Positions 4,995 to 63,534 of a DNA stretch of 64,000 bases are shown here, piece by piece. A model generated the notes under the pieces. That model searched no databases, was not told the origin of the DNA, and saw nothing but the letters and a program-made list of their open reading frames with translations. A program made the position numbers and the translations under genes. Numbering within the stretch: position 1 is the first letter of the stretch; each line of letters opens with the position of its first letter. The DNA comes from the human T2T-CHM13v2.0 reference genome, Homo sapiens: NCBI RefSeq assembly GCF_009914755.1, contig NC_060932.1; one strand, given 5' to 3'.

Positions 4995-5150
4995 TGATTG
5001 AATTAGGCTAATTCTGACTGGGTCACACTCATATTGACTGAGTTTTGATAAAACCACTCCCATGCTGGCCCTTCATGTTGTTTAATCAGCACCACTAGCC
5101 AATCACATTCATCCATTTTGACAAATCCCATGGCTCCACCTCTTATAAGA
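4995..5150 (+). promoter_or_regulatory. PRR23D proximal promoter: DUX4-type site, CCAAT and TATA
   Basis: TGATTGAATTA at 4995-5005 (reverse complement TAATTCAATCA), CCAAT at 5099-5103, TATAAGA at 5144-5150, about 220 bp upstream of the ATG. Confidence 0.6.
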
Positions 5151-14609: not shown

Positions 14610-17600
14610 TCACTCCAGGTCAGAATCGCTGTCCTCTGAGGAGGAGGAAACCTGAAGGTCCTCATAGAGGACGCTCGGTGGGACACGAACACAGGGACCC
14701 TCAGACTTCTCTGACACATGAGGGCTCTGAGCGAGGAAGGCTCCCGGCTTCTCAGGAGAGTGAAATGAGGGGGCCGCCAGGAGGCTGGAGCTCCAGCGTC
14801 CGTTTTCCAGTCTCCGGAAGAGCACTCTGAGAGGCTGGGCCCCATCATGGCTGGCCGCTGAGTGATGGGACATGGTGCAGGCCTGGGCAGTAGGCAGGCA
14901 AGGTGTGCTGTGCAGAGGCTGCCGGTCGACGCTGGGCACCTGGGCCGGTGTCCTCCTGCCCATCTGGGGCGACGTACTTGTTCCAAGTTCGGTTGCGGCT
15001 GGCGGAGGTTGGAGATTCTCCAGGGCCCCCAGCTCACCTCCCTGGATGGCGCTTTCGGGGATCTGGAAGGGACCCAGTCTCGGTTTCTTGGGGAAGTTCA
15101 GGCAAGCCTGAATCGGAGCCTGGGCAGGTCTCTTGGCTCCTGGCCCGAAGCTGAGATTGGAGCCTAGGCCCAAGCTGTGTGTGGCGGCTGGCGGGCAGGG
15201 CTGTGAGGTCACCGCAGGACGTTTGTCTTGTGCCTGGGGTCTGGCGGCCTGGAGCAGGCCGTGGGTTTTGGAGGCAGCCTGGGGAACTTCTCGGCAGCCA
15301 CCCTCAGGGCTGCTGTGTGTCGGCTTCACCACGAGGAGAGGCTCGCGGCCCTGGTGCCTGACTGCAGGCTGAGGCATGTCGGCCGCAGCCCCTGTCTGTC
15401 TTTCCTTTGGTCCAAGACTTGAGGAGGAGCTCAGGCTGGCTTTTCTGAGGGGAGACAGTGAAGCCAAGACGGAGCCCCTGCCAGACATTTCGGCAGCTGA
15501 GCGATCAGCGAGGACAGGGTCCACGCGCGGCCTCTTACTGGTTGTGTGGACCGGCATTGGCCCGCTTGCAACCTGAAAGAGAGGAAACAACACAGGTTAG
15601 AAGTTCCTCAGCATGGAGCCAACGTGAAAATCAAGCACATCCAAAGACAAGGTGCACACGCCATGAAATTCTTAGTACAGTATCGACAGGCGGTCCTTGG
15701 AAGTAGGGACAGACCCTCCACCTGAGTGCTGATCAGGACAAGACACATGAAAGATGCGCTCTCGAGCTATGTGTAGCTGATCTAAGCACACCATTGTTCA
15801 AAAGATCGCGTCTTGGGCATTAACTGGATCAAAGCGCCTCCACTCAGCCTTCCATGAAGTGGAACAGACTAATGCCCTTCCCGAGGCAGGTTGCTGGCTC
15901 AAGGGTACTCGGGACGTCTTCTCTGAACACATGCATGTTCCTGGGTTTCGCCTTCTCCACGTTTGGGGCCTCTGAGGGACTAATTTCCTCATGCCGCTAG
16001 GAACGTGTTGTTGGCAGGCTTGCCATAATTGGACAGAAAGAAAGCCACAGGAAATACGGCATCTTCAGATGCCTTCGCCTGGAATCCAATTGACCTGGAA
16101 GGATCGTGGAGTCCCTGACCCCAAGAAGGCAAGAAAGAGGGGTTCCCCGATTTCCTCCCGCAGACGGGAAGCTGAAAGGAAATCAACCAGGGTGACCTAG
16201 AGGAGAAAAAGACCAGGGGCCCGGGGTGACACTCGCCCTCAGATGATCAGAAGATTCCGTGGATCCTTTTCCATTCGGCAGCGGCTTCTCTGGAGGTTTC
16301 CCGGAAAACATGTGGAGGAGAGCCTTCCTCTGCGGGTCTTGTTGCCTGCAGAACAGAAGAAGGTCAGGCGGTGCCCCCTGGTTTTCCCCAGGAGACAGGG
16401 AGAACCCCGTCTGGGGCCCAGCCCCATTCCGTGTTTTGTGATACAGAAATGGACATCTGGTGCCCTTTCCGCCTCTGCACCTTCCCTCACGTGCCAACCT
16501 TCCCATCCTCCAGGTGGCCCTCTAGGCTTCCCAACTAAGGACTGTGATTTGGATTCCATCGCTTTTCCCGCTGTCGTGGGGAACCTGCACGAAGCGCCCC
16601 CGCCTCTCCCCGTCCCTGAATCTCCCAGAGCCCAAGGAGCTCCTGGGTGTGGAACCCCGGAGGACACGGAGCTCCGGCCTATTTCTCTGCAGCGTTCCTT
16701 CCCTGGCCCGGAGACGGAAAGGCACACGGTGTGCAGGTGCAGAGACACCATGTCCTTAGGAGGCAGTACCCTAAGAGTGGTGAAAACCCCTCCCACTGCT
16801 CACCTTGGTCTCTCTTCCTTCTCTCCCTTATCCTTGTTCAAGGGCCCCGGGTTGGCTTCACCCCGGGGCTTCCATGGTTTCAGGTTTTCCTTCCCTTCCT
16901 TTTTCCCCAAGGTCGCTGGAACCAGGGCTGCCTTCCAGCACTTCATGGGGCACCTGGTACTTCTGGCCGTGTGGCCAAAGGCCCCGCAGTTTTTGCACTT
17001 GAGCTGTGGGTGGAAAGGAAGTGATGTCAGTGAGTGAGCTGAAGCCACAGGCAGCGATCCCACGTCAACATTGGGACGGATTGTGAATTCAGAGCTGAAT
17101 AAGGATTCCAAAGAGGGGACACCGGCATGGGGGCCGTTAAGTGCTGGGAGAGTTCGGATACGATGTTCCCTCGCAAAGCCCATGGGACGGAGGAACTCTG
17201 AAAGGAAGGACTCAAGGTTCCAAGGGGCACGATGGTGAAGCCGATGTCAACAACGCAGCCAAACGTGGCTACACAGGACTCTAAGTAGAAAGGGAGGTTG
17301 CCCCCAAGAGTCTCTCAAGGGACCTATCGGGCCGGGGAGAAGGTCCCAAGCCACGCCCACCTTGGATGGGAAAAGCAACCTGGCTGGTGGTGACAGAACT
17401 CTTTGGAATCCAACCCAGTCTCTGAGGACCGTGGGACACCCCCTCCCCCCGTCCCCACCCCCACCCCGATACCCAAGAGATCCAGGGCTAGACTTACCCT
17501 GGGATCTTCTTCATCGGGCGGGGGAGCCCTTGGCCCAACTGGGGCCCTCCGCTGCTTCTGGAGGGTCTGGGCTCTCACCAGTCTCTTGGCCCAAGATTTG

Positions 17601-17620
17601 GGGTCCCGACGTGCCATCAT
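14610..17620 (-). CDS. FAM90A: FAM90A family protein, copy 1, 464 aa. Exons 17620-17498, 17003-16804, 16345-16237, 15572-14610; GC donor at the last intron
   Basis: MMARRDPKSWAKRLVRAQ...LKCKNCGAFGHTARSTRCPMK...VLYEDLQVSSSSEDSDSDLE; 123+200+109+963=1395 nt with matched splice phases. Confidence 0.93.
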
Positions 17621-18745: not shown

Positions 18746-18772
18746 AGAGGGACCTCTGCTTTCCAGGCTGCC

Positions 18773-18861
18773 TTTTATACTGCCTCTGGTCACCTGACAT
18801 GGAACGTACCCTAACCTAATCAGTTACCTGTACCTTAATTGCAATTAACTTAATCCAATTA
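18773..18861 (-). promoter_or_regulatory. FAM90A core promoter: TATAAAA, DUX4 site and homeodomain palindromes (also 26424-26512, 34075-34163, 41726-41814, 49379-49467, 57033-57121)
   Basis: TATAAAA (minus) 18773-18779; TAACCTAATCA 18812-18822; TTAATTGCAATTAA 18835-18848; TAATCCAATTA 18851-18861. Confidence 0.75.
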
Positions 18862-22260: not shown

Positions 22261-25200
22261 TCACTCCAGGTCAGAATCGCTGTCCTCTGAGGAGGAGGAA
22301 ACCTGAAGGTCCTCATAGAGGACGCTCGGTGGGACACGAACACAGGGAGCCTCAGACTTCTCTGACACATGAGGGCTCTGAGCGAGGAAGGCTCCCGGCT
22401 TCTCAGGAGAGTGAAATGAGGGGGCCGCCAGGAGGCTGGAGCTCCAGCGTCCGTTTTCCAGTCTCCGGAAGAGCACTCTGAGAGGCTGGGCCCCATCATG
22501 GCTGGCCGCTGAGTGATGGGACATGGTGCAGGCCTGGGCAGTAGGCAGGCAAGGTGTGCTGTGCGGAGGCTGCCGGTCGACGCTGGGCACCTGGGCCGGT
22601 GTCCTCCTGCCCATCTGGGGCGACGTACTTGTTCCAAGTTCGGTTGCGGCTGGCGGAGGTTGGAGATTCTCCAGGGCCCCCAGCTCACCTCCCTGGATGG
22701 CGCTTTCGGGGATCTGGAAGGGACCCAGTCTCGGTTTCTTGGGGAAGTTCAGGCAAGCCTGAATCGGAGCCTGGGCAGGTCTCTTGGCTCCTGGCCCGAA
22801 GCTGAGATTGGAGCCTAGGCCCAAGCTGTGTGTGGCGGCTGGCGGGCAGGGCTGTGAGGTCACCGCAGGACGTTTGTCTTGTGCCTGGGGTCTGGCGGCC
22901 TGGAGCAGGCCGTGGGTTTTGGAGGCAGCCTGGGGAACTTCTCGGCAGCCACCCTCAGGGCTGCTGTGTGTCGGCTTCACCACGAGGAGAGGCTCGCGGC
23001 CCTGGTGCCTGACTGCAGGCTGAGGCATGTCGGCCGCAGCCCCTGTCTGTCTTTCCTTTGGTCCAAGACTTGAGGAGGAGCTCAGGCTGGCTTTTCTGAG
23101 GGGAGACAGTGAAGCCAAGACGGAGCCCCTGCCAGACATTTCGGCAGCTGAGCGATCAGCGAGGACAGGGTCCACGCGCGGCCTCTTACTGGTTGTGTGG
23201 ACCGGCATTGGCCCGCTTGCAACCTGAAAGAGAGGAAACAACACAGGTTAGAAGTTCCTCAGCATGGAGCCAACGTGAAAATCAAGCACATCCAAAGACA
23301 AGGTGCACACGCCATGAAATTCTTAGTACAGTATCGACAGGCGGTCCTTGGAAGTAGGGACAGACCCTCCACCTGAGTGCTGATCAGGACAAGACACATG
23401 AAAGATGCGCTCTCGAGCTATGTGTAGCTGATCTAAGCACACCATTGTTCAAAAGATCGCGTCTTGGGCATTAACTGGATCAAAGCGCCTCCACTCAGCC
23501 TTCCATGAAGTGGAACGGACTAATGCCCTTCCCGAGGCAGGTTGCTGGCTCAAGGGTACTCGGGACGTCTTCTCTGAACACATGCATGTTCCTGGGTTTC
23601 GCCTTCTCCACGTTTGGGGCCTCTGAGGGACTAATTTCCTCATGCCGCTAGGAACGTGTTGTTGGCAGGCTTGCCATAATTGGACAGAAAGAAAGCCACA
23701 GGAAATACGGCATCTTCAGATGCCTTCGCCTGGAATCCAATTGACCTGGAAGGATCGTGGAGTCCCTGACCCCAAGAAGGCAAGAAAGAGGGGTTCCCCG
23801 ATTTCCTCCCGCAGACGGGAAGCTGAAAGGAAATCAACCAGGGTGACCTAGAGGAGAAAAGGACCAGGGGCCCGGGGTGACACTCACCCTCAGATGATCA
23901 GAAGATTCCGTGGATCCTTTTCCATTCGGCAGCGGCTTCTCTGGAGGTTTCCCGGAAAACATGTGGAGGAGAGCCTTCCTCTGCGGGTCTTGTTGCCTGC
24001 AGAACAGAAGAAGGTCAGGCGGTGCCCCCTGGTTTTCCCCAGGAGACAGGGAGAACCCCGTCTGGGGCCCAGCCCCATTCCGTGTTTTGTGATACAGAAA
24101 TGGACATCTGGTGCCCTTTCCGCCTCTGCACCTTCCCTCACGTGCCAACCTTCCCATCCTCCAGGTGGCCCTCTAGGCTTCCGAACTAAGGACTGTGATT
24201 TGGATTCCATCGCTTTTCCCCCTGTCGTGGGGAACCTGCACGAAGCGCCCCCGCCTCTCCCCGTCCCTGAATCTCCCAGAGCCCAAGGAGCTCCTGGGTG
24301 TGGAACCCCGGAGGACACGGAGCTCCGGCCTATTTCTCTGCAGCGCTCCTTCCCTGGCCCGGAGACGGAAAGGCACACGGTGTGCAGGTGCAGAGACACC
24401 ATGTCCTTAGGAGGCAGTACCCTAAGAGTGGTGAAAACCCCTCCCACTGCTCACCTTGGTCTCTCTTCCTTCTCTCCCTTATCCTTGTTCAAGGGCCCCG
24501 GGTTGGCTTCACCCCGGGGCTTCCATGGTTTCAGGTTTTCCTTCCCTTCCTTTTTCCCCAAGGTCGCTGGAACCAGGGCTGCCTTCCAGCACTTCATGGG
24601 GCACCTGGTACTTCTGGCCGTGTGGCCAAAGGCCCCGCAGTTTTTGCACTTGAGCTGTGGGTGGAAAGGAAGTGATGTCAGTGAGTGAGCTGAAGCCACA
24701 GGCAGCGATCCCACGTCAACATTGGGACGGATTGTGAATTCAGAGCTGAATAAGGATTCCAAAGAGGGGACACCGGCATGGGGGCCGTTAAGTGCTGGGA
24801 GAGTTCGGGTACGATGTTCCCTCGCAAAGCCCATGGGACGGAGGAACTCTGAAAGGAAGGACTCAAGGTTCCAAGGGGCACGATGGTGAAGCCGATGTCA
24901 ACAACGCAGCCAAACGTGGCTACACAGGACTCTAAGTAGAAAGGGAGGTTGCCCCCAAGAGTCTCTCAAGGGACCTATCGGGCCGGGGAGAAGGTCCCAA
25001 GCCACGCCCACCTTGGATGGGAAAAGCAACCTGGCTGGTGGTGACAGAACTCTTTGGAATCCAACCCAGTCTCTGAGGACCGTGGGACACCCCCTCCCCC
25101 CGTCCCCACCCCCACCCCGATACCCAAGAGATCCAGGGCTAGACTTACCCTGGGATCTTCTTCATCGGGCGGGGGAGCCCTTGGCCCAACTGGGGCCCTC

Positions 25201-29911: not shown

Positions 29912-32900
29912 TCACTCCAGGTCAGAATCGCTGTCCTCTGAGGAGGAGGAAACCTGAAGGTCCTCATAGAGGACGCTCGGTGGGACACGAACACAGGGAG
30001 CCTCAGACTTCTCTGACACATGAGGGCTCTGAGCGAGGAAGGCTCCCGGCTTCTCAGGAGAGTGAAATGAGGGGGCCGCCAGGAGGCTGGAGCTCCAGCG
30101 TCCGTTTTCCAGTCTCCGGAAGAGCACTCTGAGAGGCTGGGCCCCATCATGGCTGGCCGCTGAGTGATGGGACATGGTGCAGGCCTGGGCAGTAGGCAGG
30201 CAAGGTGTGCTGTGCGGAGGCTGCCGGTCGACGCTGGGCACCTGGGCCGGTGTCCTCCTGCCCATCTGGGGCGACGTACTTGGTCCAAGTTCGGTTGCGG
30301 CTGGCGGAGGTTGGAGATTCTCCAGGGCCCCCAGCTCACCTCCCTGGATGGCGCTTTCGGGGATCTGGAAGGGACCCAGTCTCGGTTTCTTGGGGAAGTT
30401 CAGGCAAGCCTGAATCGGAGCCTGGGCAGGTCTCTTGGCTCCTGGCCCGAAGCTGAGATTGGAGCCTAGGCCCAAGCTGTGTGTGGCGGCTGGCGGGCAG
30501 GGCTGTGAGGTCACCGCAGGACGTTTGTCTTGTGCCTGGGGTCTGGCGGCCTGGAGCAGGCCGTGGGTTTTGGAGGCAGCCTGGGGAACTTCTCGGCAGC
30601 CACCCTCAGGGCTGCTGTGTGTCGGCTTCACCACGAGGAGAGGCTCGCGGCCCTGGTGCCTGACTGCAGGCTGAGGCATGTCGGCCGCAGCCCCTGTCTG
30701 TCTTTCCTTTGGTCCAAGACTTGAGGAGGAGCTCAGGCTGGCTTTTCTGAGGGGAGACAGTGAAGCCAAGACGGAGCCCCTGCCAGACATTTCGGCAGCT
30801 GAGCGATCAGCGAGGACAGGGTCCACGCGCGGCCTCTTACTGGTTGTGTGGACCGGCATTGGCCCGCTTGCAACCTGAAAGAGAGGAAACAACACAGGTT
30901 AGAAGTTCCTCAGCATGGAGCCAACGTGAAAATCAAGCACATCCAAAGACAAGGTGCACACGCCATGAAATTCTTAGTACAGTATCGACAGGCGGTCCTT
31001 GGAAGTAGGGACAGACCCTCCACCTGAGTGCTGATCAGGACAAGACACATGAAAGATGCGCTCTCGAGCTATGTGTAGCTGATCTAAGCACACCATTGTT
31101 CAAAAGATCGCGTCTTGGGCATTAACTGGATCAAAGCGCCTCCACTCAGCCTTCCATGAAGTGGAACGGACTAATGCCCTTCCCGAGGCAGGTTGCTGGC
31201 TCAAGGGTACTCGGGACGTCTTCTCTGAACACATGCATGTTCCTGGGTTTCGCCTTCTCCACGTTTGGGGCCTCTGAGGGACTAATTTCCTCATGCCGCT
31301 AGGAACGTGTTGTTGGCAGGCTTGCCATAATTGGACAGAAAGAAAGCCACAGGAAATACGGCATCTTCAGATGCCTTCGCCTGGAATCCAATTGACCTGG
31401 AAGGATCGTGGAGTCCCTGACCCCAAGAAGGCAAGAAAGAGGGGTTCCCCGATTTCCTCCCGCAGACGGGAAGCTGAAAGGAAATCAACCAGGGTGACCT
31501 AGAGGAGAAAAGGACCAGGGGCCCGGGGTGACACTCACCCTCAGATGATCAGAAGATTCCGTGGATCCTTTTCCATTCGGCAGCGGCTTCTCTGGAGGTT
31601 TCCCGGAAAACATGTGGAGGAGAGCCTTCCTCTGCGGGTCTTGTTGCCTGCAGAACAGAAGAAGGTCAGGCGGTGCCCCCTGGTTTTCCCCAGGAGACAG
31701 GGAGAACCCCGTCTGGGGCCCAGCCCCATTCCGTGTTTTGTGATACAGAAATGGACATCTGGTGCCCTTTCCGCCTCTGCACCTTCCCTCACGTGCCAAC
31801 CTTCCCATCCTCCAGGTGGCCCTCTAGGCTTCCGAACTAAGGACTGTGATTTGGATTCCATCGCTTTTCCCCCTGTCGTGGGGAACCTGCACGAAGCGCC
31901 CCCGCCTCTCCCCGTCCCTGAATCTCCCAGAGCCCAAGGAGCTCCTGGGTGTGGAACCCCGGAGGACACGGAGCTCCGGCCTATTTCTCTGCAGCGCTCC
32001 TTCCCTGGCCCGGAGACGGAAAGGCACACGGTGTGCAGGTGCAGAGACACCATGTCCTTAGGAGGCAGTACCCTAAGAGTGGTGAAAAACCCTCCCACTG
32101 CTCACCTTGGTCTCTCTTCCTTCTCTCCCTTATCCTTGTTCAAGGGCCCCGGGTTGGCTTCACCCCGGGGCTTCCATGGTTTCAGGTTTTCCTTCCCTTC
32201 CTTTTTCCCCAAGGTCGCTGGAACCAGGGCTGCCTTCCAGCACTTCATGGGGCACCTGGTACTTCTGGCCGTGTGGCCAAAGGCCCCGCAGTTTTTGCAC
32301 TTGAGCTGTGGGTGGAAAGGAAGTGATGTCAGTGAGTGAGCTGAAGCCACAGGCAGCGATCCCACGTCAACATTGGGACGGATTGTGAATTCAGAGCTGA
32401 ATAAGGATTCCAAAGAGGGGACACCGGCATGGGGGCCGTTAAGTGCTGGGAGAGTTCGGGTACGATGTTCCCTCGCAAAGCCCATGGGACGGAGGAACTC
32501 TGAAAGGAAGGACTCAAGGTTCCAAGGGGCACGATGGTGAAGCCGATGTCAACAACGCAGCCAAACGTGGCTACACAGGACTCTAAGTAGAAAGGGAGGT
32601 TGCCCCCAAGAGTCTCTCAAGGGACCTATCGGGCCGGGGAGAAGGTCCCAAGCCACGCCCACCTTGGATGGGAAAAGCAACCTGGCTGGTGGTGACAGAA
32701 CTCTTTGGAATCCAACCCAGTCTCTGAGGACCGTGGGACACCCCCTCCCCCCGTCCCCACCCCCACCCCGATACCCAAGAGATCCAGGGCTAGACTTACC
32801 CTGGGATCTTCTTCATCGGGCGGGGGAGCCCTTGGCCCAACTGGGGCCCTCCGCTGCTTCTGGAGGGTCTGGGCTCTCACCAGTCTCTTGGCCCAAGATT

Positions 32901-37562: not shown

Positions 37563-40500
37563 TCACTCCAGGTCAGAATCGCTGTCCTCTGAGGAGGAGG
37601 AAACCTGAAGGTCCTCATAGAGGACGCTCGGTGGGACACGAACACAGGGAGCCTCAGACTTCTCTGACACATGAGGGCTCTGAGCGAGGAAGGCTCCCGG
37701 CTTCTCAGGAGAGTGAAATGAGGGGGCCGCCAGGAGGCTGGAGCTCCAGCGTCCGTTTTCCAGTCTCCGGAAGAGCACTCTGAGAGGCTGGGCCCCATCA
37801 TGGCTGGCCGCTGAGTGATGGGACATGGTGCAGGCCTGGGCAGTAGGCAGGCAAGGTGTGCTGTGCGGAGGCTGCCGGTCGACGCTGGGCACCTGGGCCG
37901 GTGTCCTCCTGCCCATCTGGGGCGACGTACTTGTTCCAAGTTCGGTTGCGGCTGGCGGAGGTTGGAGATTCTCCAGGGCCCCCAGCTCACCTCCCTGGAT
38001 GGCGCTTTCGGGGATCTGGAAGGGACCCAGTCTCGGTTTCTTGGGGAAGTTCAGGCAAGCCTGAATCGGAGCCTGGGCAGGTCTCTTGGCTCCTGGCCCG
38101 AAGCTGAGATTGGAGCCTAGGCCCAAGCTGTGTGTGGCGGCTGGCGGGCAGGGCTGTGAGGTCACCGCAGGACGTTTGTCTTGTGCCTGGGGTCTGGCGG
38201 CCTGGAGCAGGCCGTGGGTTTTGGAGGCAGCCTGGGGAACTTCTCGGCAGCCACCCTCAGGGCTGCTGTGTGTCGGCTTCACCACGAGGAGAGGCTCGCG
38301 GCCCTGGTGCCTGACTGCAGGCTGAGGCATGTCGGCCGCAGCCCCTGTCTGTCTTTCCTTTGGTCCAAGACTTGAGGAGGAGCTCAGGCTGGCTTTTCTG
38401 AGGGGAGACAGTGAAGCCAAGACGGAGCCCCTGCCAGACATTTCGGCAGCTGAGCGATCAGCGAGGACAGGGTCCACGCGCGGCCTCTTACTGGTTGTGT
38501 GGACCGGCATTGGCCCGCTTGCAACCTGAAAGAGAGGAAACAACACAGGTTAGAAGTTCCTCAGCATGGAGCCAACGTGAAAATCAAGCACATCCAAAGA
38601 CAAGGTGCACACGCCATGAAATTCTTAGTACAGTATCGACAGGCGGTCCTTGGAAGTAGGGACAGACCCTCCACCTGAGTGCTGATCAGGACAAGACACA
38701 TGAAAGATGCGCTCTCGAGCTATGTGTAGCTGATCTAAGCACACCATTGTTCAAAAGATCGCGTCTTGGGCATTAACTGGATCAAAGCGCCTCCACTCAG
38801 CCTTCCATGAAGTGGAACGGACTAATGCCCTTCCCGAGGCAGGTTGCTGGCTCAAGGGTACTCGGGACGTCTTCTCTGAACACATGCATGTTCCTGGGTT
38901 TCGCCTTCTCCACGTTTGGGGCCTCTGAGGGACTAATTTCCTCATGCCGCTAGGAACGTGTTGTTGGCAGGCTTGCCATAATTGGACAGAAAGAAAGCCA
39001 CAGGAAATACGGCATCTTCAGATGCCTTCGCCTGGAATCCAATTGACCTGGAAGGATCGTGGAGTCCCTGACCCCAAGAAGGCAAGAAAGAGGGGTTCCC
39101 CGATTTCCTCCCGCAGACGGGAAGCTGAAAGGAAATCAACCAGGGTGACCTAGAGGAGAAAAGGACCAGGGGCCCGGGGTGACACTCACCCTCAGATGAT
39201 CAGAAGATTCCGTGGATCCTTTTCCATTCGGCAGCGGCTTCTCTGGAGGTTTCCCGGAAAACATGTGGAGGAGAGCCTTCCTCTGCGGGTCTTGTTGCCT
39301 GCAGAACAGAAGAAGGTCAGGCGGTGCCCCCTGGTTTTCCCCAGGAGACAGGGAGAACCCCGTCTGGGGCCCAGCCCCATTCCGTGTTTTGTGATACAGA
39401 AATGGACATCTGGTGCCCTTTCCGCCTCTGCACCTTCCCTCACGTGCCAACCTTCCCATCCTCCAGGTGGCCCTCTAGGCTTCCGAACTAAGGACTGTGA
39501 TTTGGATTCCATCGCTTTTCCCCCTGTCGTGGGGAACCTGCACGAAGCGCCCCCGCCTCTCCCCGTCCCTGAATCTCCCAGAGCCCAAGGAGCTCCTGGG
39601 TGTGGAACCCCGGAGGACACGGAGCTCCGGCCTATTTCTCTGCAGCGCTCCTTCCCTGGCCCGGAGACGGAAAGGCACACGGTGTGCAGGTGCAGAGACA
39701 CCATGTCCTTAGGAGGCAGTACCCTAAGAGTGGTGAAAACCCCTCCCACTGCTCACCTTGGTCTCTCTTCCTTCTCTCCCTTATCCTTGTTCAAGGGCCC
39801 CGGGTTGGCTTCACCCCGGGGCTTCCATGGTTTCAGGTTTTCCTTCCCTTCCTTTTTCCCCAAGGTCGCTGGAACCAGGGCTGCCTTCCAGCACTTCATG
39901 GGGCACCTGGTACTTCTGGCCGTGTGGCCAAAGGCCCCGCAGTTTTTGCACTTGAGCTGTGGGTGGAAAGGAAGTGATGTCAGTGAGTGAGCTGAAGCCA
40001 CAGGCAGCGATCCCACGTCAACATTGGGACGGATTGTGAATTCAGAGCTGAATAAGGATTCCAAAGAGGGGACACCGGCATGGGGGCCGTTAAGTGCTGG
40101 GAGAGTTCGGGTACGATGTTCCCTCGCAAAGCCCATGGGACGGAGGAACTCTGAAAGGAAGGACTCAAGGTTCCAAGGGGCACGATGGTGAAGCCGATGT
40201 CAACAACGCAGCCAAACGTGGCTACACAGGACTCTAAGTAGAAAGGGAGGTTGCCCCCAAGAGTCTCTCAAGGGACCTATCGGGCCGGGGAGAAGGTCCC
40301 AAGCCACGCCCACCTTGGATGGGAAAAGCAACCTGGCTGGTGGTGACAGAACTCTTTGGAATCCAACCCAGTCTCTGAGGACCGTGGGACACCCCCTCCC
40401 CCCGTCCCCACCCCCACCCCGATACCCAAGAGATCCAGGGCTAGACTTACCCTGGGATCTTCTTCATCGGGCGGGGGAGCCCTTGGCCCAACTGGGGCCC

Positions 40501-45215: not shown

Positions 45216-48200
45216 TCACTCCAGGTCAGAATCGCTGTCCTCTGAGGAGGAGGAAACCTGAAGGTCCTCATAGAGGACGCTCGGTGGGACACGAACACAG
45301 GGAGCCTCAGACTTCTCTGACACATGAGGGCTCTGAGCGAGGAAGGCTCCCGGCTTCTCAGGAGAGTGAAATGAGGGGGCCGCCAGGAGGCTGGAGCTCC
45401 AGCGTCCGTTTTCCAGTCTCCGGAAGAGCACTCTGAGAGGCTGGGCCCCATCATGGCTGGCCGCTGAGTGATGGGACATGGTGCAGGCCTGGGCAGTAGG
45501 CAGGCAAGGTGTGCTGTGCGGAGGCTGCCGGTCGACGCTGGGCACCTGGGCCGGTGTCCTCCTGCCCATCTGGGGCGACGTACTTGTTCCAAGTTCGGTT
45601 GCGGCTGGCGGAGGTTGGAGATTCTCCAGGGCCCCCAGCTCACCTCCCTGGATGGCGCTTTCGGGGATCTGGAAGGGACCCAGTCTCGGTTTCTTGGGGA
45701 AGTTCAGGCAAGCCTGAATCGGAGCCTGGGCAGGTCTCTTGGCTCCTGGCCCGAAGCTGAGATTGGAGCCTAGGCCCAAGCTGTGTGTGGCGGCTGGCGG
45801 GCAGGGCTGTGAGGTCACCGCAGGACGTTTGTCTTGTGCCTGGGGTCTGGCGGCCTGGAGCAGGCCGTGGGTTTTGGAGGCAGCCTGGGGAACTTCTCGG
45901 CAGCCACCCTCAGGGCTGCTGTGTGTCGGCTTCACCACGAGGAGAGGCTCGCGGCCCTGGTGCCTGACTGCAGGCTGAGGCATGTCGGCCGCAGCCCCTG
46001 TCTGTCTTTCCTTTGGTCCAAGACTTGAGGAGGAGCTCAGGCTGGCTTTTCTGAGGGGAGACAGTGAAGCCAAGACGGAGCCCCTGCCAGACATTTCGGC
46101 AGCTGAGCGATCAGCGAGGACAGGGTCCACGCGCGGCCTCTTACTGGTTGTGTGGACCGGCATTGGCCCGCTTGCAACCTGAAAGAGAGGAAACAACACA
46201 GGTTAGAAGTTCCTCAGCATGGAGCCAACGTGAAAATCAAGCACATCCAAAGACAAGGTGCACACGCCATGAAATTCTTAGTACAGTATCGACAGGCGGT
46301 CCTTGGAAGTAGGGACAGACCCTCCACCTGAGTGCTGATCAGGACAAGACACATGAAAGATGCGCTCTCGAGCTATGTGTAGCTGATCTAAGCACACCAT
46401 TGTTCAAAAGATCGCGTCTTGGGCATTAACTGGATCAAAGCGCCTCCACTCAGCCTTCCATGAAGTGGAACAGACTAATGCCCTTCCCGAGGCAGGTTGC
46501 TGGCTCAAGGGTACTCGGGACGTCTTCTCTGAACACATGCATGTTCCTGGGTTTCGCCTTCTCCACGTTTGGGGCCTCTGAGGGACTAATTTCCTCATGC
46601 CGCTAGGAACGTGTTGTTGGCAGGCTTGCCATAATTGGACAGAAAGAAAGCCACAGGAAATACGGCATCTTCAGATGCCTTCGCCTGGAATCCAATTGAC
46701 CTGGAAGGATCGTGGAGTCCCTGACCCCAAGAAGGCAAGAAAGAGGGGTTCCCCGATTTCCTCCCGCAGACGGGAAGCTGAAAGGAAATCAACCAGGGTG
46801 ACCTAGAGGAGAAAAAGACCAGGGGCCCGGGGTGACACTCGCCCTCAGATGATCAGAAGATTCCGTGGATCCTTTTCCATTCGGCAGCGGCTTCTCTGGA
46901 GGTTTCCCGGAAAACATGTGGAGGAGAGCCTTCCTCTGCGGGTCTTGTTGCCTGCAGAACAGAAGAAGGTCAGGCGGTGCCCCCTGGTTTTCCCCAGGAG
47001 ACAGGGAGAACCCCGTCTGGGGCCCAGCCCCATTCCGTGTTTTGTGATACAGAAATGGACATCTGGTGCCCTTTCCGCCTCTGCACCTTCCCTCACGTGC
47101 CAACCTTCCCATCCTCCAGGTGGCCCTCTAGGCTTCCCAACTAAGGACTGTGATTTGGATTCCATCGCTTTTCCCGCTGTCGTGGGGAACCTGCACGAAG
47201 CGCCCCCGCCTCTCCCCGTCCCTGAATCTCCCAGAGCCCAAGGAGCTCCTGGGTGTGGAACCCCGGAGGACACGGAGCTCCGGCCTATTTCTCTGCAGCG
47301 TTCCTTCCCTGGCCCGGAGACGGAAAGGCACACGGTGTGCAGGTGCAGAGACACCATGTCCTTAGGAGGCAGTACCCTAAGAGTGGTGAAAACCCCTCCC
47401 ACTGCTCACCTTGGTCTCTCTTCCTTCTCTCCCTTATCCTTGTTCAAGGGCCCCGGGTTGGCTTCACCCCGGGGCTTCCATGGTTTCAGGTTTTCCTTCC
47501 CTTCCTTTTTCCCCAAGGTCGCTGGAACCAGGGCTGCCTTCCAGCACTTCATGGGGCACCTGGTACTTCTGGCCGTGTGGCCAAAGGCCCCGCAGTTTTT
47601 GCACTTGAGCTGTGGGTGGAAAGGAAGTGATGTCAGTGAGTGAGCTGAAGCCACAGGCAGCGATCCCACGTCAACATTGGGACGGATTGTGAATTCAGAG
47701 CTGAATAAGGATTCCAAAGAGGGGACACCGGCATGGGGGCCGTTAAGTGCTGGGAGAGTTCGGATACGATGTTCCCTCGCAAAGCCCATGGGACGGAGGA
47801 ACTCTGAAAGGAAGGACTCAAGGTTCCAAGGGGCACGATGGTGAAGCCGATGTCAACAACGCAGCCAAACGTGGCTACACAGGACTCTAAGTAGAAAGGG
47901 AGGTTGCCCCCAAGAGTCTCTCAAGGGACCTATCGGGCCGGGGAGAAGGTCCCAAGCCACGCCCACCTTGGATGGGAAAAGCAACCTGGCTGGTGGTGAC
48001 AGAACTCTTTGGAATCCAACCCAGTCTCTGAGGACCGTGGGACACCCCCTCCCCCCGTCCCCACCCCCACCCCGATACCCAAGAGATCCAGGGCTAGACT
48101 TACCCTGGGATCTTCTTCATCGGGCGGGGGAGCCCTTGGCCCAACTGGGGCCCTCCGCTGCTTCTGGAGGGTCTGGGCTCTCACCAGTCTCTTGGCCCAA

Positions 48201-52869: not shown

Positions 52870-55800
52870 TCACTCCAGGTCAGAATCGCTGTCCTCTGAG
52901 GAGGAGGAAACCTGAAGGTCCTCATAGAGGACGCTCGGTGGGACACGAACACAGGGAGCCTCAGACTTCTCTGACACATGAGGGCTCTGAGCGAGGAAGG
53001 CTCCCGGCTTCTCAGGAGAGTGAAATGAGGGGGCCGCCAGGAGGCTGGAGCTCCAGCGTCCGTTTTCCAGTCTCCGGAAGAGCACTCTGAGAGGCTGGGC
53101 CCCATCATGGCTGGCCGCTGAGTGATGGGACATGGTGCAGGCCTGGGCAGTAGGCAGGCAAGGTGTGCTGTGCGGAGGCTGCCGGTCGACGCTGGGCACC
53201 TGGGCCGGTGTCCTCCTGCCCATCTGGGGCGACGTACTTGTTCCAAGTTCGGTTGCGGCTGGCGGAGGTTGGAGATTCTCCAGGGCCCCCAGCTCACCTC
53301 CCTGGATGGCGCTTTCGGGGATCTGGAAGGGACCCAGTCTCGGTTTCTTGGGGAAGTTCAGGCAAGCCTGAATCGGAGCCTGGGCAGGTCTCTTGGCTCC
53401 TGGCCCGAAGCTGAGATTGGAGCCTAGGCCCAAGCTGTGTGTGGCGGCTGGCGGGCAGGGCTGTGAGGTCACCGCAGGACGTTTGTCTTGTGCCTGGGGT
53501 CTGGCGGCCTGGAGCAGGCCGTGGGTTTTGGAGGCAGCCTGGGGAACTTCTCGGCAGCCACCCTCAGGGCTGCTGTGTGTCGGCTTCACCACGAGGAGAG
53601 GCTCGCGGCCCTGGTGCCTGACTGCAGGCTGAGGCATGTCGGCCGCAGCCCCTGTCTGTCTTTCCTTTGGTCCAAGACTTGAGGAGGAGCTCAGGCTGGC
53701 TTTTCTGAGGGGAGACAGTGAAGCCAAGACGGAGCCCCTGCCAGACATTTCGGCAGCTGAGCGATCAGCGAGGACAGGGTCCACGCGCGGCCTCTTACTG
53801 GTTGTGTGGACCGGCATTGGCCCGCTTGCAACCTGAAAGAGAGGAAACAACACAGGTTAGAAGTTCCTCAGCATGGAGCCAACGTGAAAATCAAGCACAT
53901 CCAAAGACAAGGTGCACACGCCATGAAATTCTTAGTACAGTATCGACAGGCGGTCCTTGGAAGTAGGGACAGACCCTCCACCTGAGTGCTGATCAGGACA
54001 AGACACATGAAAGATGCGCTCTCGAGCTATGTGTAGCTGATCTAAGCACACCATTGTTCAAAAGATCGCGTCTTGGGCATTAACTGGATCAAAGCGCCTC
54101 CACTCAGCCTTCCATGAAGTGGAACGGACTAATGCCCTTCCCGAGGCAGGTTGCTGGCTCAAGGGTACTCGGGACGTCTTCTCTGAACACATGCATGTTC
54201 CTGGGTTTCGCCTTCTCCACGTTTGGGGCCTCTGAGGGACTAATTTCCTCATGCCGCTAGGAACGTGTTGTTGGCAGGCTTGCCATAATTGGACAGAAAG
54301 AAAGCCACAGGAAATACGGCATCTTCAGATGCCTTCGCCTGGAATCCAATTGACCTGGAAGGATCGTGGAGTCCCTGACCCCAAGAAGGCAAGAAAGAGG
54401 GGTTCCCCGATTTCCTCCCGCAGACGGGAAGCTGAAAGGAAATCAACCAGGGTGACCTAGAGGAGAAAAGGACCAGGGGCCCGGGGTGACACTCACCCTC
54501 AGATGATCAGAAGATTCCGTGGATCCTTTTCCATTCGGCAGCGGCTTCTCTGGAGGTTTCCCGGAAAACATGTGGAGGAGAGCCTTCCTCTGCGGGTCTT
54601 GTTGCCTGCAGAACAGAAGAAGGTCAGGCCGTGCCCCCTGGTTTTCCCCAGGAGACAGGGAGAACCCCGTCTGGGGCCCAGCCCCATTCCGTGTTTTGTG
54701 ATACAGAAATGGACATCTGGTGCCCTTTCCGCCTCTGCACCTTCCCTCACGTGCCAACCTTCCCATCCTCCAGGTGGCCCTCTAGGCTTCCCAACTAAGG
54801 ACTGTGATTTGGATTCCATCGCTTTTCCCCCTGTCGTGGGGAACCTGCACGAAGCGCCCCCGCCTCTCCCCGTCCCTGAATCTCCCAGAGCCCAAGGAGC
54901 TCCTGGGTGTGGAACCCCGGAGGACACGGAGCTCCGGCCTATTTCTCTGCAGCGCTCCTTCCCTGGCCCGGAGACGGAAAGGCACACGGTGTGCAGGTGC
55001 AGAGACACCATGTCCTTAGGAGGCAGTACCCTAAGAGTGGTGAAAACCCCTCCCACTGCTCACCTTGGTCTCTCTTCCTTCTCTCCCTTATCCTTGTTCA
55101 AGGGCCCCGGGTTGGCTTCACCCCGGGGCTTCCATGGTTTCAGGTTTTCCTTCCCTTCCTTTTTCCCCAAGGTCGCTGGAACCAGGGCTGCCTTCCAGCA
55201 CTTCATGGGGCACCTGGTACTTCTGGCCGTGTGGCCAAAGGCCCCGCAGTTTTTGCACTTGAGCTGTGGGTGGAAAGGAAGTGATGTCAGTGAGTGAGCT
55301 GAAGCCACAGGCAGCGATCCCACGTCAACATTGGGACGGATTGTGAATTCAGAGCTGAATAAGGATTCCAAAGAGGGGACACCGGCATGGGGGCCGTTAA
55401 GTGCTGGGAGAGTTCGGGTACGATGTTCCCTCGCAAAGCCCACGGGACGGAGGAACTCTGAAAGGAAGGACTCAAGGTTCCAAGGGGCACGATGGTGAAG
55501 CCGATGTCAACAACGCAGCCAAACGTGGCTACACAGGACTCTAAGTAGAAAGGGAGGTTGCCCCCAAGAGTCTCTCAAGGGACCTATCGGGCCGGGGAGA
55601 AGGTCCCAAGCCACGCCCACCTTGGATGGGAAAAGCAACCTGGCTGGTGGTGACAGAACTCTTTGGAATCCAACCCAGTCTCTGAGGACCGTGTGACAGC
55701 CCCTCCCCCCGTCCCCACCCCCACCCCGATACCCAAGAGATCCAGGGCTAGACTTACCCTGGGATCTTCTTCATCGGGCGGGGGAGCCCTTGGCCCAACT

Positions 55801-60523: not shown

Positions 60524-63500
60524 TCACTCCAGGTCAGAATCGCTGTCCTCTGAGGAGGAGGAAACCTGAAGGTCCTCATAGAGGACGCTCGGTGGGACAC
60601 GAACACAGGGAGCCTCAGACTTCTCTGACACATGAGGGCTCTGAGCGAGGAAGGCTCCCGGCTTCTCAGGAGAGTGAAATGAGGGGGCCGCCAGGAGGCT
60701 GGAGCTCCAGCGTCCGTTTTCCAGTCTCCGGAAGAGCACTCTGAGAGGCTGGGCCCCATCATGGCTGGCCGCTGAGTGATGGGACATGGTGCAGGCCTGG
60801 GCAGTAGGCAGGCAAGGTGTGCTGTGCGGAGGCTGCCGGTCGACGCTGGGCACCTGGGCCGGTGTCCTCCTGCCCATCTGGGGCGACGTACTTGGTCCAA
60901 GTTCGGTTGCGGCTGGCGGAGGTTGGAGATTCTCCGGGGCCCCCAGCTCACCTCCCTGGATGGCGCTTTCGGGGACCTGGAAGGGACCCAGTCTCGGTTT
61001 CTTGGGGAAGTTCAGGCAAGCCTGAATCGGAGCCTGGGCAGGTCTCTTGGCTCCTGGCCCGAAGCTGAGATTGGAGCCTAGGCCCAAGCTGTGTGTGGCG
61101 GCTGGCGGGCAGGGCTGTGAGGTCACCGCAGGACGTTTGTCTTGTGCCTGGGGTCTGGCAGCCTGGGGCAGTCCGTGGGTTTTGGAGGCAGCCTGGGGAA
61201 CTTCTCGGCAGCCACCCTCGGGGCGGCTGTGTGTCGGCTTCACCACGAGGAGAGGCTCGCGGCCCTGGTGCCTGACTGCAGGCTGAGGCATGTCAGCCGC
61301 AGCCCCTGTCTGTCTTTCCTTTGATCCAAGACTTGAGGAGGAGCTCAGGCTGGCTTTTCTGAGGGGAGACAGTGAAGCCAAGACGGAGCCCCTGCCAGAC
61401 ATTGCGGTAGCTGAGCGATCAGCGAGGACAGGGTCCAAGCGCGGCCTCTTACTGGTTGTGTGGACCGGCATTGGCCCGCTTGCAACCTGAAAGAGAGGAA
61501 ACAACACAGGTTAGAAGTTCCTCAGCATGGAGCCAACGTGAAAATCAAGCACATCCAAAGACAAGGTGCACACGCCATGAAATTCTTAGTACAGTATCGA
61601 CAGGCGGTCCTTGGAAGTAGGGACAGACCCTCCACCTGAGTGCTGATCAGGACAAGACACATGAAAGATGCGCTCTCGAGCTATGTGTAGCTGATCTAAG
61701 CACACCATTGTTCAAAAGATCGCGTCTTGGGCATTAACTGGATCAAAGCGCCTCCACTCAGCCTTCCATGAAGTGGAACGGACTAATGCCCTTCCCAAGG
61801 CAGGTTGCTGGCTCAAGGGTACTCGGGACGTCTTCTCTGAACACATGCATGTTTCTGGGTTTCGCCTTCTCCACGTTTGGGGCCTCTGAGGGACTAATTT
61901 CCTCATGCCGCTAGGAACATGTTGTTGGCAGGCTTGCCATAATTGAACAGAAAGAAAGCAACAGGAAATACGGCATGTTCAGATGCCTTCGCCTGGAATC
62001 CAATTGACCTGGAAGGATCGTGGAGTCCCTGACCCCAAGAAGGCAAGAAAGAGGGGTTCCCCGATTTCCTCCCGCAGACGGGAAGCTGAAAGGAAATCAA
62101 CCAGGGTGACCTAGAGGAGAAAAAGACCAGGGGCCCGGGGTGACACTCGCCGTCAGATAATCAGAAGATTCCGTGGATCCTTTTCCATTCGGCAGCGGCT
62201 TCTCTGGAGGTTTCCCGGAAAACATGTGGAGGAGAGCCTTCCTCTGCGGGTCTTGTTGCCTGCAGAACAGAAGAAGGTCAGGCCGTGCCCCCTGGTTTTC
62301 CCCAGGAGACAGGGAGAACCCCGTCTGGGGCCCAGCCCCATTCCGTGTTTTGTGATACAGAAATGGACATCTGGTGCCCTTTCCGCCTCTGCACCTTCCC
62401 TCACGTGCCAACCTTCCCATCCTCCAGGTGGCCCTCTAGGCTTCCCAACTAAGGACTGTGATTTGGATTCCATCGCTTTTCCCCCTGTCGTGGGGAACCT
62501 GCACGAAGCGCCCCCGCCTCTCCCCGTCCCTGAATCTCCCAGAGCCCAAGGAGCTCCTGGGTGTGGAGCCCCGGAGGACACGGAGCTCCGGCCTATTTCT
62601 CTGCAGCGTTCCTTCCCTGGCCCGGAGACGGAAAGGCACACGGTGTGCAGGTGCAGAGACACCATGTCCTTAGGAGGCAGTACCCTAAGAGTGGTGAAAA
62701 CCCCTCCCACTGCTCACCTTGGTCTCTCTTCCTTCTCTCCCTTATCCTTGTTCAAGGGCCCCGGGTTGGCTTCACCCCGGGGCTTCCATGGTTTCAGGTT
62801 TTCCTTCCCTTCCTTTTTCCCCAAGGTCGCTGGAACCAGGGCTGCCTTCCAGCACTTCATGGGGCACCTGGTACTTCTGGCCGTGTGGCCAAAGGCCCCG
62901 CAGTTTTTGCACTTGAGCTGTGGGTGGAAAGGAAGTGATGTCAGTGAGTGAGCTGAAGCCACAGACAGCGATCCCACGTCAACATTGGGACGGATTGTGA
63001 ATTCAGAGCTGAATAAGGATTCCAAAGAGGGGACACCGGCATGGGGGCCGTTAAGTGCTGGGAGAGTTCGGATACGATGTTCCCTCGCAAAGCCCACGGG
63101 ACGGAGGAACTCTGAAAGGAAGGACTCAAGGTTCCAAGGGGCACGATGGTGAAGCCGATGTCAACAACGCAGCCAAACGTGGCTACACAGGACTCTAAGT
63201 AGAAAGGGAGGTTGCCCCCAAGAGTCTCTCAAGGGACCTATCGGGCCGGGGAGAAGGTCCCAAGCCACGCCTACCTTGGATGGGAAAAGCAACCTGGCTG
63301 GTGGTGACAGAACTCTTTGGAATCCAACCCAGTCTCTGAGGACCGTGTGACAGCCCCTCCCCCCGTCCCCACCCCCACCCCGATACCCAAGAGATCCAGG
63401 GCTAGACTTACCCTGGGATCTTCTTCATCGGGCGGGGGAGCCCTTGGCCCAACTGGGGCCCTCCGCTGCTTCTGGAGGGTCTGGGCTCTCACCAGTCTCT

Positions 63501-63534
63501 TGGCCCAAGATTTGGGGTCCCGACGTGCCATCAT
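60524..63534 (-). CDS. FAM90A: FAM90A copy 7 (divergent paralog), 464 aa. Exons 63534-63412, 62917-62718, 62259-62151, 61486-60524; weak GC donor
   Basis: Intact frame with 11 amino-acid differences from copy 2; last donor ACG|GCGAGT. Confidence 0.9.

What the first reader, a model, noticed from the sequence alone, without database searches (positions are those of the whole stretch)
16947..17003. TAF1-type zinc knuckle (C-x2-C-x4-H-x6-C), invariant in all copies
Seen: LKCKNCGAFGHTARSTRCP, flanked by basic residues, with coding exons 1-2 identical in protein across all seven copies. Established, from recall: TAF1 has LKCGACGAIGHMRTNKFCP with the same spacing, which differs from the retroviral x4 spacing, and this knuckle contributes to core-promoter DNA binding. 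Inference: FAM90A binds promoter DNA/RNA or competes with TAF1.
Basis: partly seen in the sequence, partly recalled or inferred. Interest (0 to 1): 0.7.

Follow-up and report, generated by a model that had tools for sequence, protein, structure and literature searches.

The report
FAM90A: a shrunken copy of TAF1
The zinc knuckle is real and already described, but it belongs to a longer stretch showing that the multi-copy human FAM90A genes share exon boundaries and several sequence blocks with the core transcription factor TAF1, so FAM90A is most likely a cut-down TAF1 duplicate from early placental mammals that probably switches genes on through BET proteins.

Summary
The motif is at 16947-17003 (-) and in all 7 window copies. 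It matches Pfam zf-CCHC_6. The spacing shared with TAF1 is in print (PMC5854669), so the finding as written is known. Its invariance mostly reflects recent duplication.

What I did not find in print is that the likeness goes far beyond the knuckle. All three FAM90A introns fall at the same place and phase as three consecutive TAF1 introns, and exon 3 is 109 nt in both. A FAM90A profile finds human TAF1 as its best PDB hit (E 5.6e-8), with a second match to TAF1's tail motif SVLYEDL. The chr19 FAM90A27-type gene adds a further TAF1 block and two more matching introns.

FAM90A is therefore a partial TAF1 duplicate (about 0.95) without the TBP-binding, main TAF7-binding and bromodomain parts. The two basic residues TAF1 needs to bind DNA are not in register. 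Published work shows FAM90A1 activates when tethered and binds BRD2/3/4. A predicted hairpin docks weakly on the BET ET domain (0.53 vs 0.03).

The parts
16947..17003 (-). C-x2-C-x4-H-x6-C zinc knuckle (FAM90A aa 42-60; equals TAF1 1283-1301), at the very start of coding exon 2 of the copy annotated FAM90A6P
   Evidence: PF15288 E 1.4e-23; pLDDT 82-85
17498..17620 (-). Coding exon 1 (123 nt, phase 0 end); aligns without gaps to the TAF1 exon that precedes the knuckle, with low residue conservation
16804..17003 (-). Coding exon 2 (200 nt, phase 0 to 2); the TAF1 counterpart is 212 nt, phase 0 to 2, and starts at the same codon (L-K-C)
16237..16345 (-). Coding exon 3 (109 nt, phase 2 to 0); the TAF1 counterpart is also 109 nt, phase 2 to 0; RKALL..F and (C)D(Y/H)LR correspond to TAF1 RKSLVLKF and CDYLN
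14610..15572 (-). Coding exon 4 (963 nt, phase 0 start), mostly disordered; begins like the next TAF1 exon and ends in a TAF1 tail motif; no bromodomain
15078..15089 (-). KKPR (aa 306-309), conserved basic patch, likely a nuclear localisation signal (inference)
   Evidence: K306 invariant
14778..14831 (-). Predicted beta-hairpin, aa 392-409; fits a published BET ET-binding consensus; no match in TAF1L; degenerate in FAM90A27-type proteins
   Evidence: (pLDDT 84-85)
14625..14675 (-). C-terminal SVLYEDL + Ser/acidic motif (aa 444-460); matches TAF1L 1758-1773; second most conserved block of the family
   Evidence: (0 of 2000 shuffles)
18812..18822 (+). Perfect match to the DUX4 binding consensus (consensus recalled), 33 bp upstream of a TATAAAAG on the gene's strand
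18772..18779 (-). TATAAAAG, candidate TATA box of the unit (not tested)
24598..24654 (-). Knuckle, copy 2 (FAM90A7)
32249..32305 (-). Knuckle, copy 3
39900..39956 (-). Knuckle, copy 4
47553..47609 (-). Knuckle, copy 5
55207..55263 (-). Knuckle, copy 6
62861..62917 (-). Knuckle, copy 7 (ORF 60524-63534, intact, no row in the supplied gene table)

Best explanation
FAM90A shares intron positions and collinear sequence blocks with the C-terminal half of TAF1, so it is most likely a partial genomic duplicate of TAF1 that lost the TBP-binding, main TAF7-binding and bromodomain parts and likely works as a small nuclear activator that recruits BET proteins. SHOWN here: the knuckle, the matching introns, the collinear blocks, the missing domains, and a range across all four placental superorders. 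SHOWN in print: tethered FAM90A1 activates a reporter, holds an activation domain and interacts with BRD2/3/4; FAM90A1 RNA rises with DUX4. INFERRED history: before the placental radiation a genomic piece of TAF1 was copied; two exons and the bromodomain exons were deleted in frame; the 560-codon FAM90A27 type is the older form; the 8p23 type lost the first two exons, gained a hairpin and was amplified in tandem. INFERRED mechanism: the knuckle binds zinc and likely holds nucleic acid with low specificity through a shifted basic face; the hairpin likely docks on the BET ET domain; the SVLYEDL-acidic tail likely binds the same unknown partner as TAF1's tail; a DUX4 site beside a TATA box likely drives expression in DUX4-positive cells. 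Confidence in descent is about 0.95, in the full mechanism about 0.45; the number below is for the whole statement.
For: Introns: FAM90A exons 2 and 3 are 200 nt (phase 0-2) and 109 nt (2-0); the TAF1 exons are 212 (0-2) and 109 (2-0) and start at the same codon. The chr19 gene has exons 72/173/178/203/109/948 with phases 0,2,0,2,0; its first intron matches TAF1 (QRD|ID vs EEE|IK) and the next exon is 173 vs 176 nt, phase 0-2. Sequence: profile vs PDB gives TAF1 best, E 5.6e-8, stretches 1240-1398 and 1694-1746, next hit E 0.3; hhalign 142 columns, probability 93%. Profiles that exclude the knuckle find the collinear spot in TAF1L: exon 3 plus start of exon 4 (4 of 2000 shuffles reach the score), tail (0 of 2000), N-terminal extension (0 of 2000). 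The fold of that extension has TAF1 chains as the top 6 Foldseek rows (E 0.6-1.3, weak) and VIA Z 5.0, rmsd 2.2, 44 residues on TAF1 992-1035. Function: bioRxiv 10.1101/2021.07.30.454360, bioRxiv 10.1101/2022.06.01.494187, PMC5323140. BRD4 ET plus residues 380-416: weak support, 0.53 vs best control 0.03, partner pLDDT 61, runs agree in at least 95% of contacts; the mark was reached by 51 of 78 solved and 2 of 108 mismatched pairs, but at 0.60 or under by only 5 of 78 solved and by all 4 mismatches that passed; it may reflect solved ET-peptide complexes.
Against: TAF1's DNA-binding residues R1295 and K1298 are not kept in register, and the basic flank before the knuckle is acidic. Exon 3 alone (226 of 2000 shuffles), the post-knuckle part of exon 2 (509 of 2000) and the body of exon 4 (112 of 2000) are not significant on their own, and exon 1 gave no domain hit. 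The ET consensus is present in only 12 of 30 proteins and is a short, common pattern (2418 hits in 1253 yeast proteins, PMC13373324). BRD2 binds TFIID through its C-terminus outside the ET domain (bioRxiv 10.1101/2025.09.20.676678), so the BET link could run through the TAF1-derived tail instead. Activation was shown only by tethering and over-expression, and only for FAM90A1. No paper pairing FAM90A with zygotic genome activation was found. The copy named in the finding is annotated as a pseudogene and has a GC donor in intron 3. Only human TAF1/TAF1L were compared, so there is no tree and the dating rests on absence of non-placental named hits.
Confidence: 0.5

Rival explanations
1. FAM90A is a TAF1 derivative that acts as a competitor or decoy: its knuckle, exon-3 block and tail occupy TAF1's DNA sites or protein partners and so tune TFIID (closest to the first reader's idea).
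For: The two best-conserved blocks of FAM90A (aa 41-60 at 0.84, aa 441-460 at 0.82 mean majority frequency) are both TAF1-derived. At least 57 copies exist in this genome. The 48-residue equivalent of TAF1's minimal DNA-binding fragment stays net basic (+3 to +11 vs +10 in TAF1L).
Against: R1295/K1298 are not in register. Tethered FAM90A1 activates rather than blocks, and the paper names BET, not TFIID, as its partner. There is no DUF3591 to enter TFIID.
Confidence: 0.2
2. FAM90A is TAF1-derived, but its knuckle has been repurposed for RNA or protein binding, outside promoter recognition.
For: Family-specific invariant positions differ from TAF1 (F50 in 29 of 30, S56 in 26, R58 in 25, K62 in 28). 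A single-sequence search hits retroviral nucleocapsid knuckles first (E 0.002). Many CCHC knuckles bind single-stranded nucleic acid (established knowledge).
Against: The published partners and tethering result are transcriptional. No RNA data were found.
Confidence: 0.15
3. The 8p23 copies are mostly passengers of a segmental-duplication array; the protein mattered in ancestors, or only the FAM90A27 type matters, and invariance here reflects recent duplication and conversion.
For: Units are 97.7-99.97% identical with long invariant runs. 13 of 17 variable codons in the window are non-synonymous. One solo copy lost a zinc ligand. Many copies are annotated as pseudogenes.
Against: All 7 window ORFs are intact. 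Exon 2 is under-varied among 36 copies (P=0.009, biased sample). The hairpin-bearing type is conserved from armadillo to human.
Confidence: 0.12
4. The knuckle came independently from a retroelement (I-factor-like LINE ORF1 or Gag), and the likeness to TAF1 is convergence.
For: PMC5854669 lists Drosophila I factor with the same spacing. Nucleocapsid knuckles score weakly against the exon.
Against: This cannot explain five matching introns, the 109-nt exon, or three TAF1 blocks outside the knuckle. With a profile, TAF1 (E 5.6e-8) far outranks nucleocapsid (E 0.3). LINE ORF1 sequences were not compared directly.
Confidence: 0.03

Closest known systems
TAF1 (TFIID subunit 1), its Cx2Cx4Hx6C knuckle (PMC5854669)
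   Same: Knuckle spacing and PF15288 match; three consecutive introns (five in the chr19 type); collinear blocks at TAF1 about 1018-1067 (chr19 type only), 1240-1398 and 1694-1746.
   Different: No TBP-binding domain, DUF3591 core or bromodomains; R1295/K1298 not in register; acidic flank before the knuckle; a new Pro-rich exon 4 with a hairpin; placental only and multi-copy.
Mammalian TAF duplicates TAF1L, TAF7L, TAF9B, TAF4B (PMC6672047)
   Same: Lineage-restricted copies of TFIID subunits; TAF1L and TAF7L are tied to testis, and mouse Fam90a1b is listed as male-reproductive-tract specific (PMC7436996).
   Different: TAF1L is a near full-length intronless retrocopy about 95% like TAF1, and the others are listed as TAF paralogues. 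FAM90A keeps introns, is a fragment about 23% identical in the aligned part, and is amplified. That survey does not mention FAM90 (0 hits).
FAM90A family as described (8p23.1/12p13 copy-number-variable family, PF15288)
   Same: This is that family; the window holds 7 tandem copies.
   Different: Papers read call it primate-specific. Named homologues here span Afrotheria, Xenarthra, Laurasiatheria and Euarchontoglires, and its origin from TAF1 was not stated in anything I could search.
BET ET-domain ligands (consensus in PMC13373324; NSD3, LANA and MLV integrase hairpins recalled)
   Same: Disordered protein with a short basic/hydrophobic beta-hairpin; FAM90A1 binds BRD2/3/4 in cells.
   Different: The binding site is not mapped; consensus in 12 of 30 orthologues; prediction only weak.

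Membership tests
Pfam zf-CCHC_6 (PF15288) | Score above the curated cut-off of 22 bits | tested here: met
   82.9 bits, E 1.4e-23. Partly circular: FAM90A scores above TAF1L (63.3) and the model is, from recall, built around FAM90A.
TAF1-type knuckle | C-x2-C-x4-H-x6-C with Gly after Cys2, Gly before His, Pro after the last Cys | tested here: met
   C44, C47, H52, C59, G51, P60 in 30 of 30; G48 in 29 of 30
TAF1-type knuckle | Basic residues at TAF1 R1295 and K1298, needed for DNA binding | tested here: not met
   Basic in 0 of 30 and 10 of 30; window copies have Ala and Thr; basic residues sit one place later (PMC5854669)
TAF1-type knuckle | Binds zinc and double-stranded promoter DNA | not testable with these tools
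   Needs EMSA or BLI
TAF1 duplicate (descent) | Shared intron positions and phases | tested here: met
   3 of 3 introns in window genes, 5 of 5 in the chr19 gene; the second chr19 intron joins two TAF1 exons that are not neighbours
TAF1 duplicate (descent) | Collinear homology outside the knuckle | tested here: met
   Three blocks significant against shuffles; three other segments not significant and exon 1 gave no hit
TAF1 duplicate (descent) | Tree placing FAM90A inside vertebrate TAF1 | not tested
   Only human TAF1/TAF1L were held
Functional TFIID subunit TAF1 | TBP-binding domain, DUF3591 (TAF7 binding), double bromodomain | tested here: not met
   None in 4 of 4 full-length FAM90A proteins at E up to 1; all three in TAF1L. 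The chr19 type keeps only a block that overlaps the end of DUF3591.
BET ET-domain ligand | ET consensus in a hairpin that binds ET | tested here: inconclusive
   Consensus met in human, 12 of 30 overall; hairpin predicted; complex weak, 0.53 vs 0.03
DUX4 target gene | DUX4 site near the start and induction by DUX4 | tested here: inconclusive
   Consensus in 6 of 6 window units whose upstream lies in the window, 7 matches vs 0.2 expected, though copies are not independent. FAM90A1 is up 5.5 and 11.8 in two tables of PMC5323140 (passages). Direct binding not seen.
Retroviral-type CCHC (PF00098) | C-x2-C-x4-H-x4-C above cut-off | tested here: not met
   14.5 bits vs cut-off 20.8; spacing is x6

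The most novel reading that the evidence does not exclude
FAM90A is a previously unrecognised, placental-specific 'mini-TAF1': a DUX4-switched, 57-copy activator that keeps TAF1's knuckle and tail but replaces the acetyl-lysine readers with a direct BET-docking hairpin, so it rewires TFIID-BET promoter firing in germline and cleavage-stage cells, with dosage set by 8p23 copy number.
Probability: 0.2. Interest if true: 0.88.

Novelty: new variant of a known kind. Interest (0 to 1): 0.66.

Why it matters
FAM90A is one of three human gene families with over 50 copies (bioRxiv 10.1101/2024.09.26.615256), varies in copy number between people, and has had no known origin or function. Tracing it to TAF1 gives it a parent and specific tests. 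It adds an overlooked, placental-wide TAF1 offshoot to TFIID evolution, where a 2019 survey names only TAF1L. It also points to a motif in TAF1's own acidic tail (SVLYEDL) that has been kept in both genes, which makes the job of that tail testable.

Tried and rejected
Single-sequence search of exon 2 against PDB gave only nucleocapsid knuckles and no TAF1 at E up to 10; the profile reversed this. A fold search with the 8p23-type model found nothing (best E 1.2; mean pLDDT 47). The idea that the hairpin or the body of exon 4 is a decayed bromodomain found no support in TAF1L (536 and 112 of 2000 shuffles). A genome search with the last 31 residues found only FAM90A copies (59 of 59 candidates) and missed TAF1, so it says nothing on how rare the motif is. 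The 1.84-billion library search listed 150 of 209 hits, all at E below 1e-10 and without names, so it did not show the weakest relatives. No named marsupial, monotreme or non-mammal hit appeared in three word-seeded searches with length limits; this is absence at limited sensitivity. The Atlas returned only PF15288 clusters; the third is auto-named 'CXorf58 homolog' and was not followed. The bacterial promoter scan was uninformative. The original FAM90A paper (10.1093/hmg/ddm209) and PMC4260347 were not held. Literature searches: FAM90A (141 papers, 30 listed); FAM90A+TAF1 (11 of 11 listed); FAM90+duplication+TFIID (1); FAM90A1+BRD4 (4); FAM90A+DUX4 (9, 7 listed); FAM90A+zygotic genome activation (0); TAF1+993-1075 (0). 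PMC9307855 and PMC7041752 (passages) gave nothing on mechanism.
Full report
Observation. The 57 bases at 16947-17003 on the minus strand read LKCKNCGAFGHTARSTRCP. The same peptide occurs once in each of 7 tandem units about 7.65 kb apart and nowhere else in six frames. Each unit has an intact 464-codon, four-exon ORF (123/200/109/963 nt). Coding exons 1-2 have no variable site in 323 nt, against 38 in the other 2688 nt. That is nominally P = 0.01, but the units are 97.7-99.97% identical and 8 invariant runs exceed 323 nt in a 6-unit alignment. The genome holds at least 57 copies on chr8 and chr12 (51 with the same top score; 150 of 254 candidates scored). In the 40 copies examined, exon 1 varies freely, exon 2 is under-varied in 36 tandem-type copies (2/200 vs 76/1616, P = 0.009, biased sample), and solo copies carry knuckle changes including C44Y. 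Selection on the knuckle is clear across species: the four ligands are invariant in 30 of 30 placental proteins I chose for spread, at 33% mean column identity.

What is already known. Exon 2 matches Pfam zf-CCHC_6 at E 1.4e-23, and the database rows already carry that domain. Curran et al. 2018 (PMC5854669; I read parts 1-3 of 7) state that TAF1 shares its spacing with Drosophila I factor and FAM90A, and that the FAM90 knuckle was proposed to bind DNA. They show that TAF1 1256-1303 binds DNA and needs R1295 and K1298.

What I did not find in print: the likeness is descent. I mapped TAF1 exons by aligning the intronless TAF1L to TAF1 in this genome. The TAF1 knuckle exon starts at the same codon as FAM90A exon 2 (acceptor, then L-K-C), phase 0, and ends in phase 2 (212 vs 200 nt). 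The next exon is 109 nt, phase 2 to 0, in both genes. So all three FAM90A introns match three consecutive TAF1 introns. A profile of 30 FAM90A proteins finds human TAF1 as best hit among 177,635 PDB sequences (E 5.6e-8; next E 0.3), aligned over TAF1 1240-1398 and again at 1694-1746, where TAF1's SVLYEDLLMSEGEDDE meets FAM90A's SVLYEDLQVSSSSEDSD. Profiles that leave out the knuckle still pick the collinear place in the 1826-residue TAF1L: exon 3 plus the start of exon 4 (4 of 2000 local shuffles reach the score) and the tail (0 of 2000). Exon 1 gave no hit, and exon 3 alone, the rest of exon 2, the body of exon 4 and the hairpin were not significant.

An older form. Two chr19 matches belong to the FAM90A27 type. 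One has an intact 560-codon ORF in six exons (72/173/178/203/109/948; phases 0,2,0,2,0); its inverted twin has two stops. Its extra N-terminal block is nearly invariant in 27 placental proteins and matches TAF1L 1014-1066 (BLASTP E 3e-6 pairwise; 0 of 2000 shuffles). Its first intron falls where TAF1's does, and the next exon is 173 vs 176 nt with the same phases. Two TAF1 exons (393 nt, in frame) are missing between that exon and the next. The predicted helices of this block have TAF1 chains as the top 6 Foldseek rows (E 0.6-1.3) and TAF1 992-1035 as second VIA row (Z 5.0, rmsd 2.2, 44 residues); each is weak alone. All named homologues in three searches are placental mammals, from all four superorders. 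I infer a genomic duplication before the placental radiation; no tree was built.

What was lost and gained. Pfam finds only the knuckle in four full-length FAM90A proteins, while TAF1L also has TBP-binding, DUF3591 and bromodomains. AlphaFold2 shows a disordered chain with two confident islands, the knuckle and a beta-hairpin at 393-409. In the knuckle, TAF1 R1295 aligns to Ala54 (basic in 0 of 30) and K1298 to position 57 (10 of 30). FAM90A has basic residues at 55 and 58 instead (23 and 25 of 30). The flank just before the knuckle is acidic, yet the whole 48-residue equivalent of the TAF1 DNA-binding fragment stays net basic. DNA binding is plausible but cannot be copied over from TAF1.

How it likely works. 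In a proteome-wide tethering screen FAM90A1 activated transcription, held an activation domain and interacted with BRD2, BRD3 and BRD4 (bioRxiv 10.1101/2021.07.30.454360; passages and sections 8-9 read; figures not held and supplement closed, so I do not know which tile activates or whether TAFs were among the preys). Tethered FAM90A1 raised the active fraction of a reporter (bioRxiv 10.1101/2022.06.01.494187; one passage). The hairpin fits a published ET-binding consensus (PMC13373324; passages) in human and in 12 of 30 proteins. Folding BRD4 ET with residues 380-416 gave weak support: 0.53 against a best control of 0.03, partner pLDDT 61, runs agreeing in at least 95% of contacts. That mark was reached by 51 of 78 solved and 2 of 108 mismatched pairs, but scores of 0.60 or under were reached by only 5 of 78 solved pairs and by all 4 mismatches that passed, and solved ET-peptide complexes may drive it. 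BRD2 binds TFIID through its C-terminus, not ET (bioRxiv 10.1101/2025.09.20.676678; passages), so the TAF1-derived tail is an alternative BET contact. Each unit with upstream sequence in the window has a DUX4 consensus (recalled) 33 bp from TATAAAAG, as do 7 of 7 other chr8/chr12 copies checked; the two chr19 stretches held lack it. FAM90A1 is listed as up 5.5 and 11.8 among DUX4-responsive genes (PMC5323140; passages). Mouse Fam90a1b is listed as male-reproductive-tract specific (PMC7436996; passages). My best model is a DUX4- or germline-expressed, TAF1-derived activator that holds nucleic acid loosely through the knuckle and recruits BET proteins.

Novelty. Searches for FAM90A with TAF1 (11 papers) and FAM90 with duplication and TFIID (1 paper) returned only Curran 2018 as relevant, and in the parts read it notes spacing only. 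A TFIID evolution survey (PMC6672047; passages) has no FAM90 mention, and a TAF1 review names TAF1L as the paralogue (PMC11423858; passages). The founding FAM90A paper and most subscription journals could not be read, so prior notice is possible.

Verdict. Observation confirmed; the knuckle resemblance is known; descent from TAF1 is well supported (about 0.95) and apparently unreported; the mechanism is about 0.45. Not a functional TAF1 by membership test. New variant of a known kind (lineage-specific TAF duplicates). Interest 0.66.

Noticed in passing
L033:184-5430 (G000:C19:56359184-56364430, +): The chr19 FAM90A27-type gene has an intact 560-codon ORF with canonical splice sites; homologues are named 'FAM90A27P' yet the N-terminal block is nearly invariant across placental mammals, so this is likely a real conserved gene. 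Its inverted twin (L034) has two stops.
   Followed up: partly
window 60524-63534 (-): Seventh FAM90A copy with an intact ORF and no row in the supplied gene table; its 3' half differs from the other six at many sites, like a haplotype or conversion boundary.
   Followed up: partly
window, intron 3 donors of the copies at 17 kb, 48 kb and 63 kb: GC replaces GT at the intron 3 donor in 3 of 7 copies, including FAM90A6P; it may weaken splicing.
   Followed up: no
window 4995-5005 and 1706-1713: A further DUX4-like site about 190 bp before the first exon of the selected PRR23D1 transcript, and a separate TATAAAAG on the minus strand.
   Followed up: no
L039 (C2:75.516 Mb), L040-L041 (C16:32.18 and 31.95 Mb), L042 (C19:21.12 Mb): Decayed FAM90A-like relics with stops and frameshifts; in L039 similarity seems to run across exon junctions, as in a processed copy.
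   Followed up: partly
TAF1L 1356-1366 (L032): TAF1's own LVLKF stretch fits the published ET-binding consensus; the matching FAM90A exon 3 stretch does not.
   Followed up: no
P0089, P0039, P0193, P0290, P0302: Database models that join FAM90A pieces to USP17, a 7-TM receptor, KRAB/zinc-finger or MARK2-named parts; probably annotation fusions of neighbouring genes.
   Followed up: no
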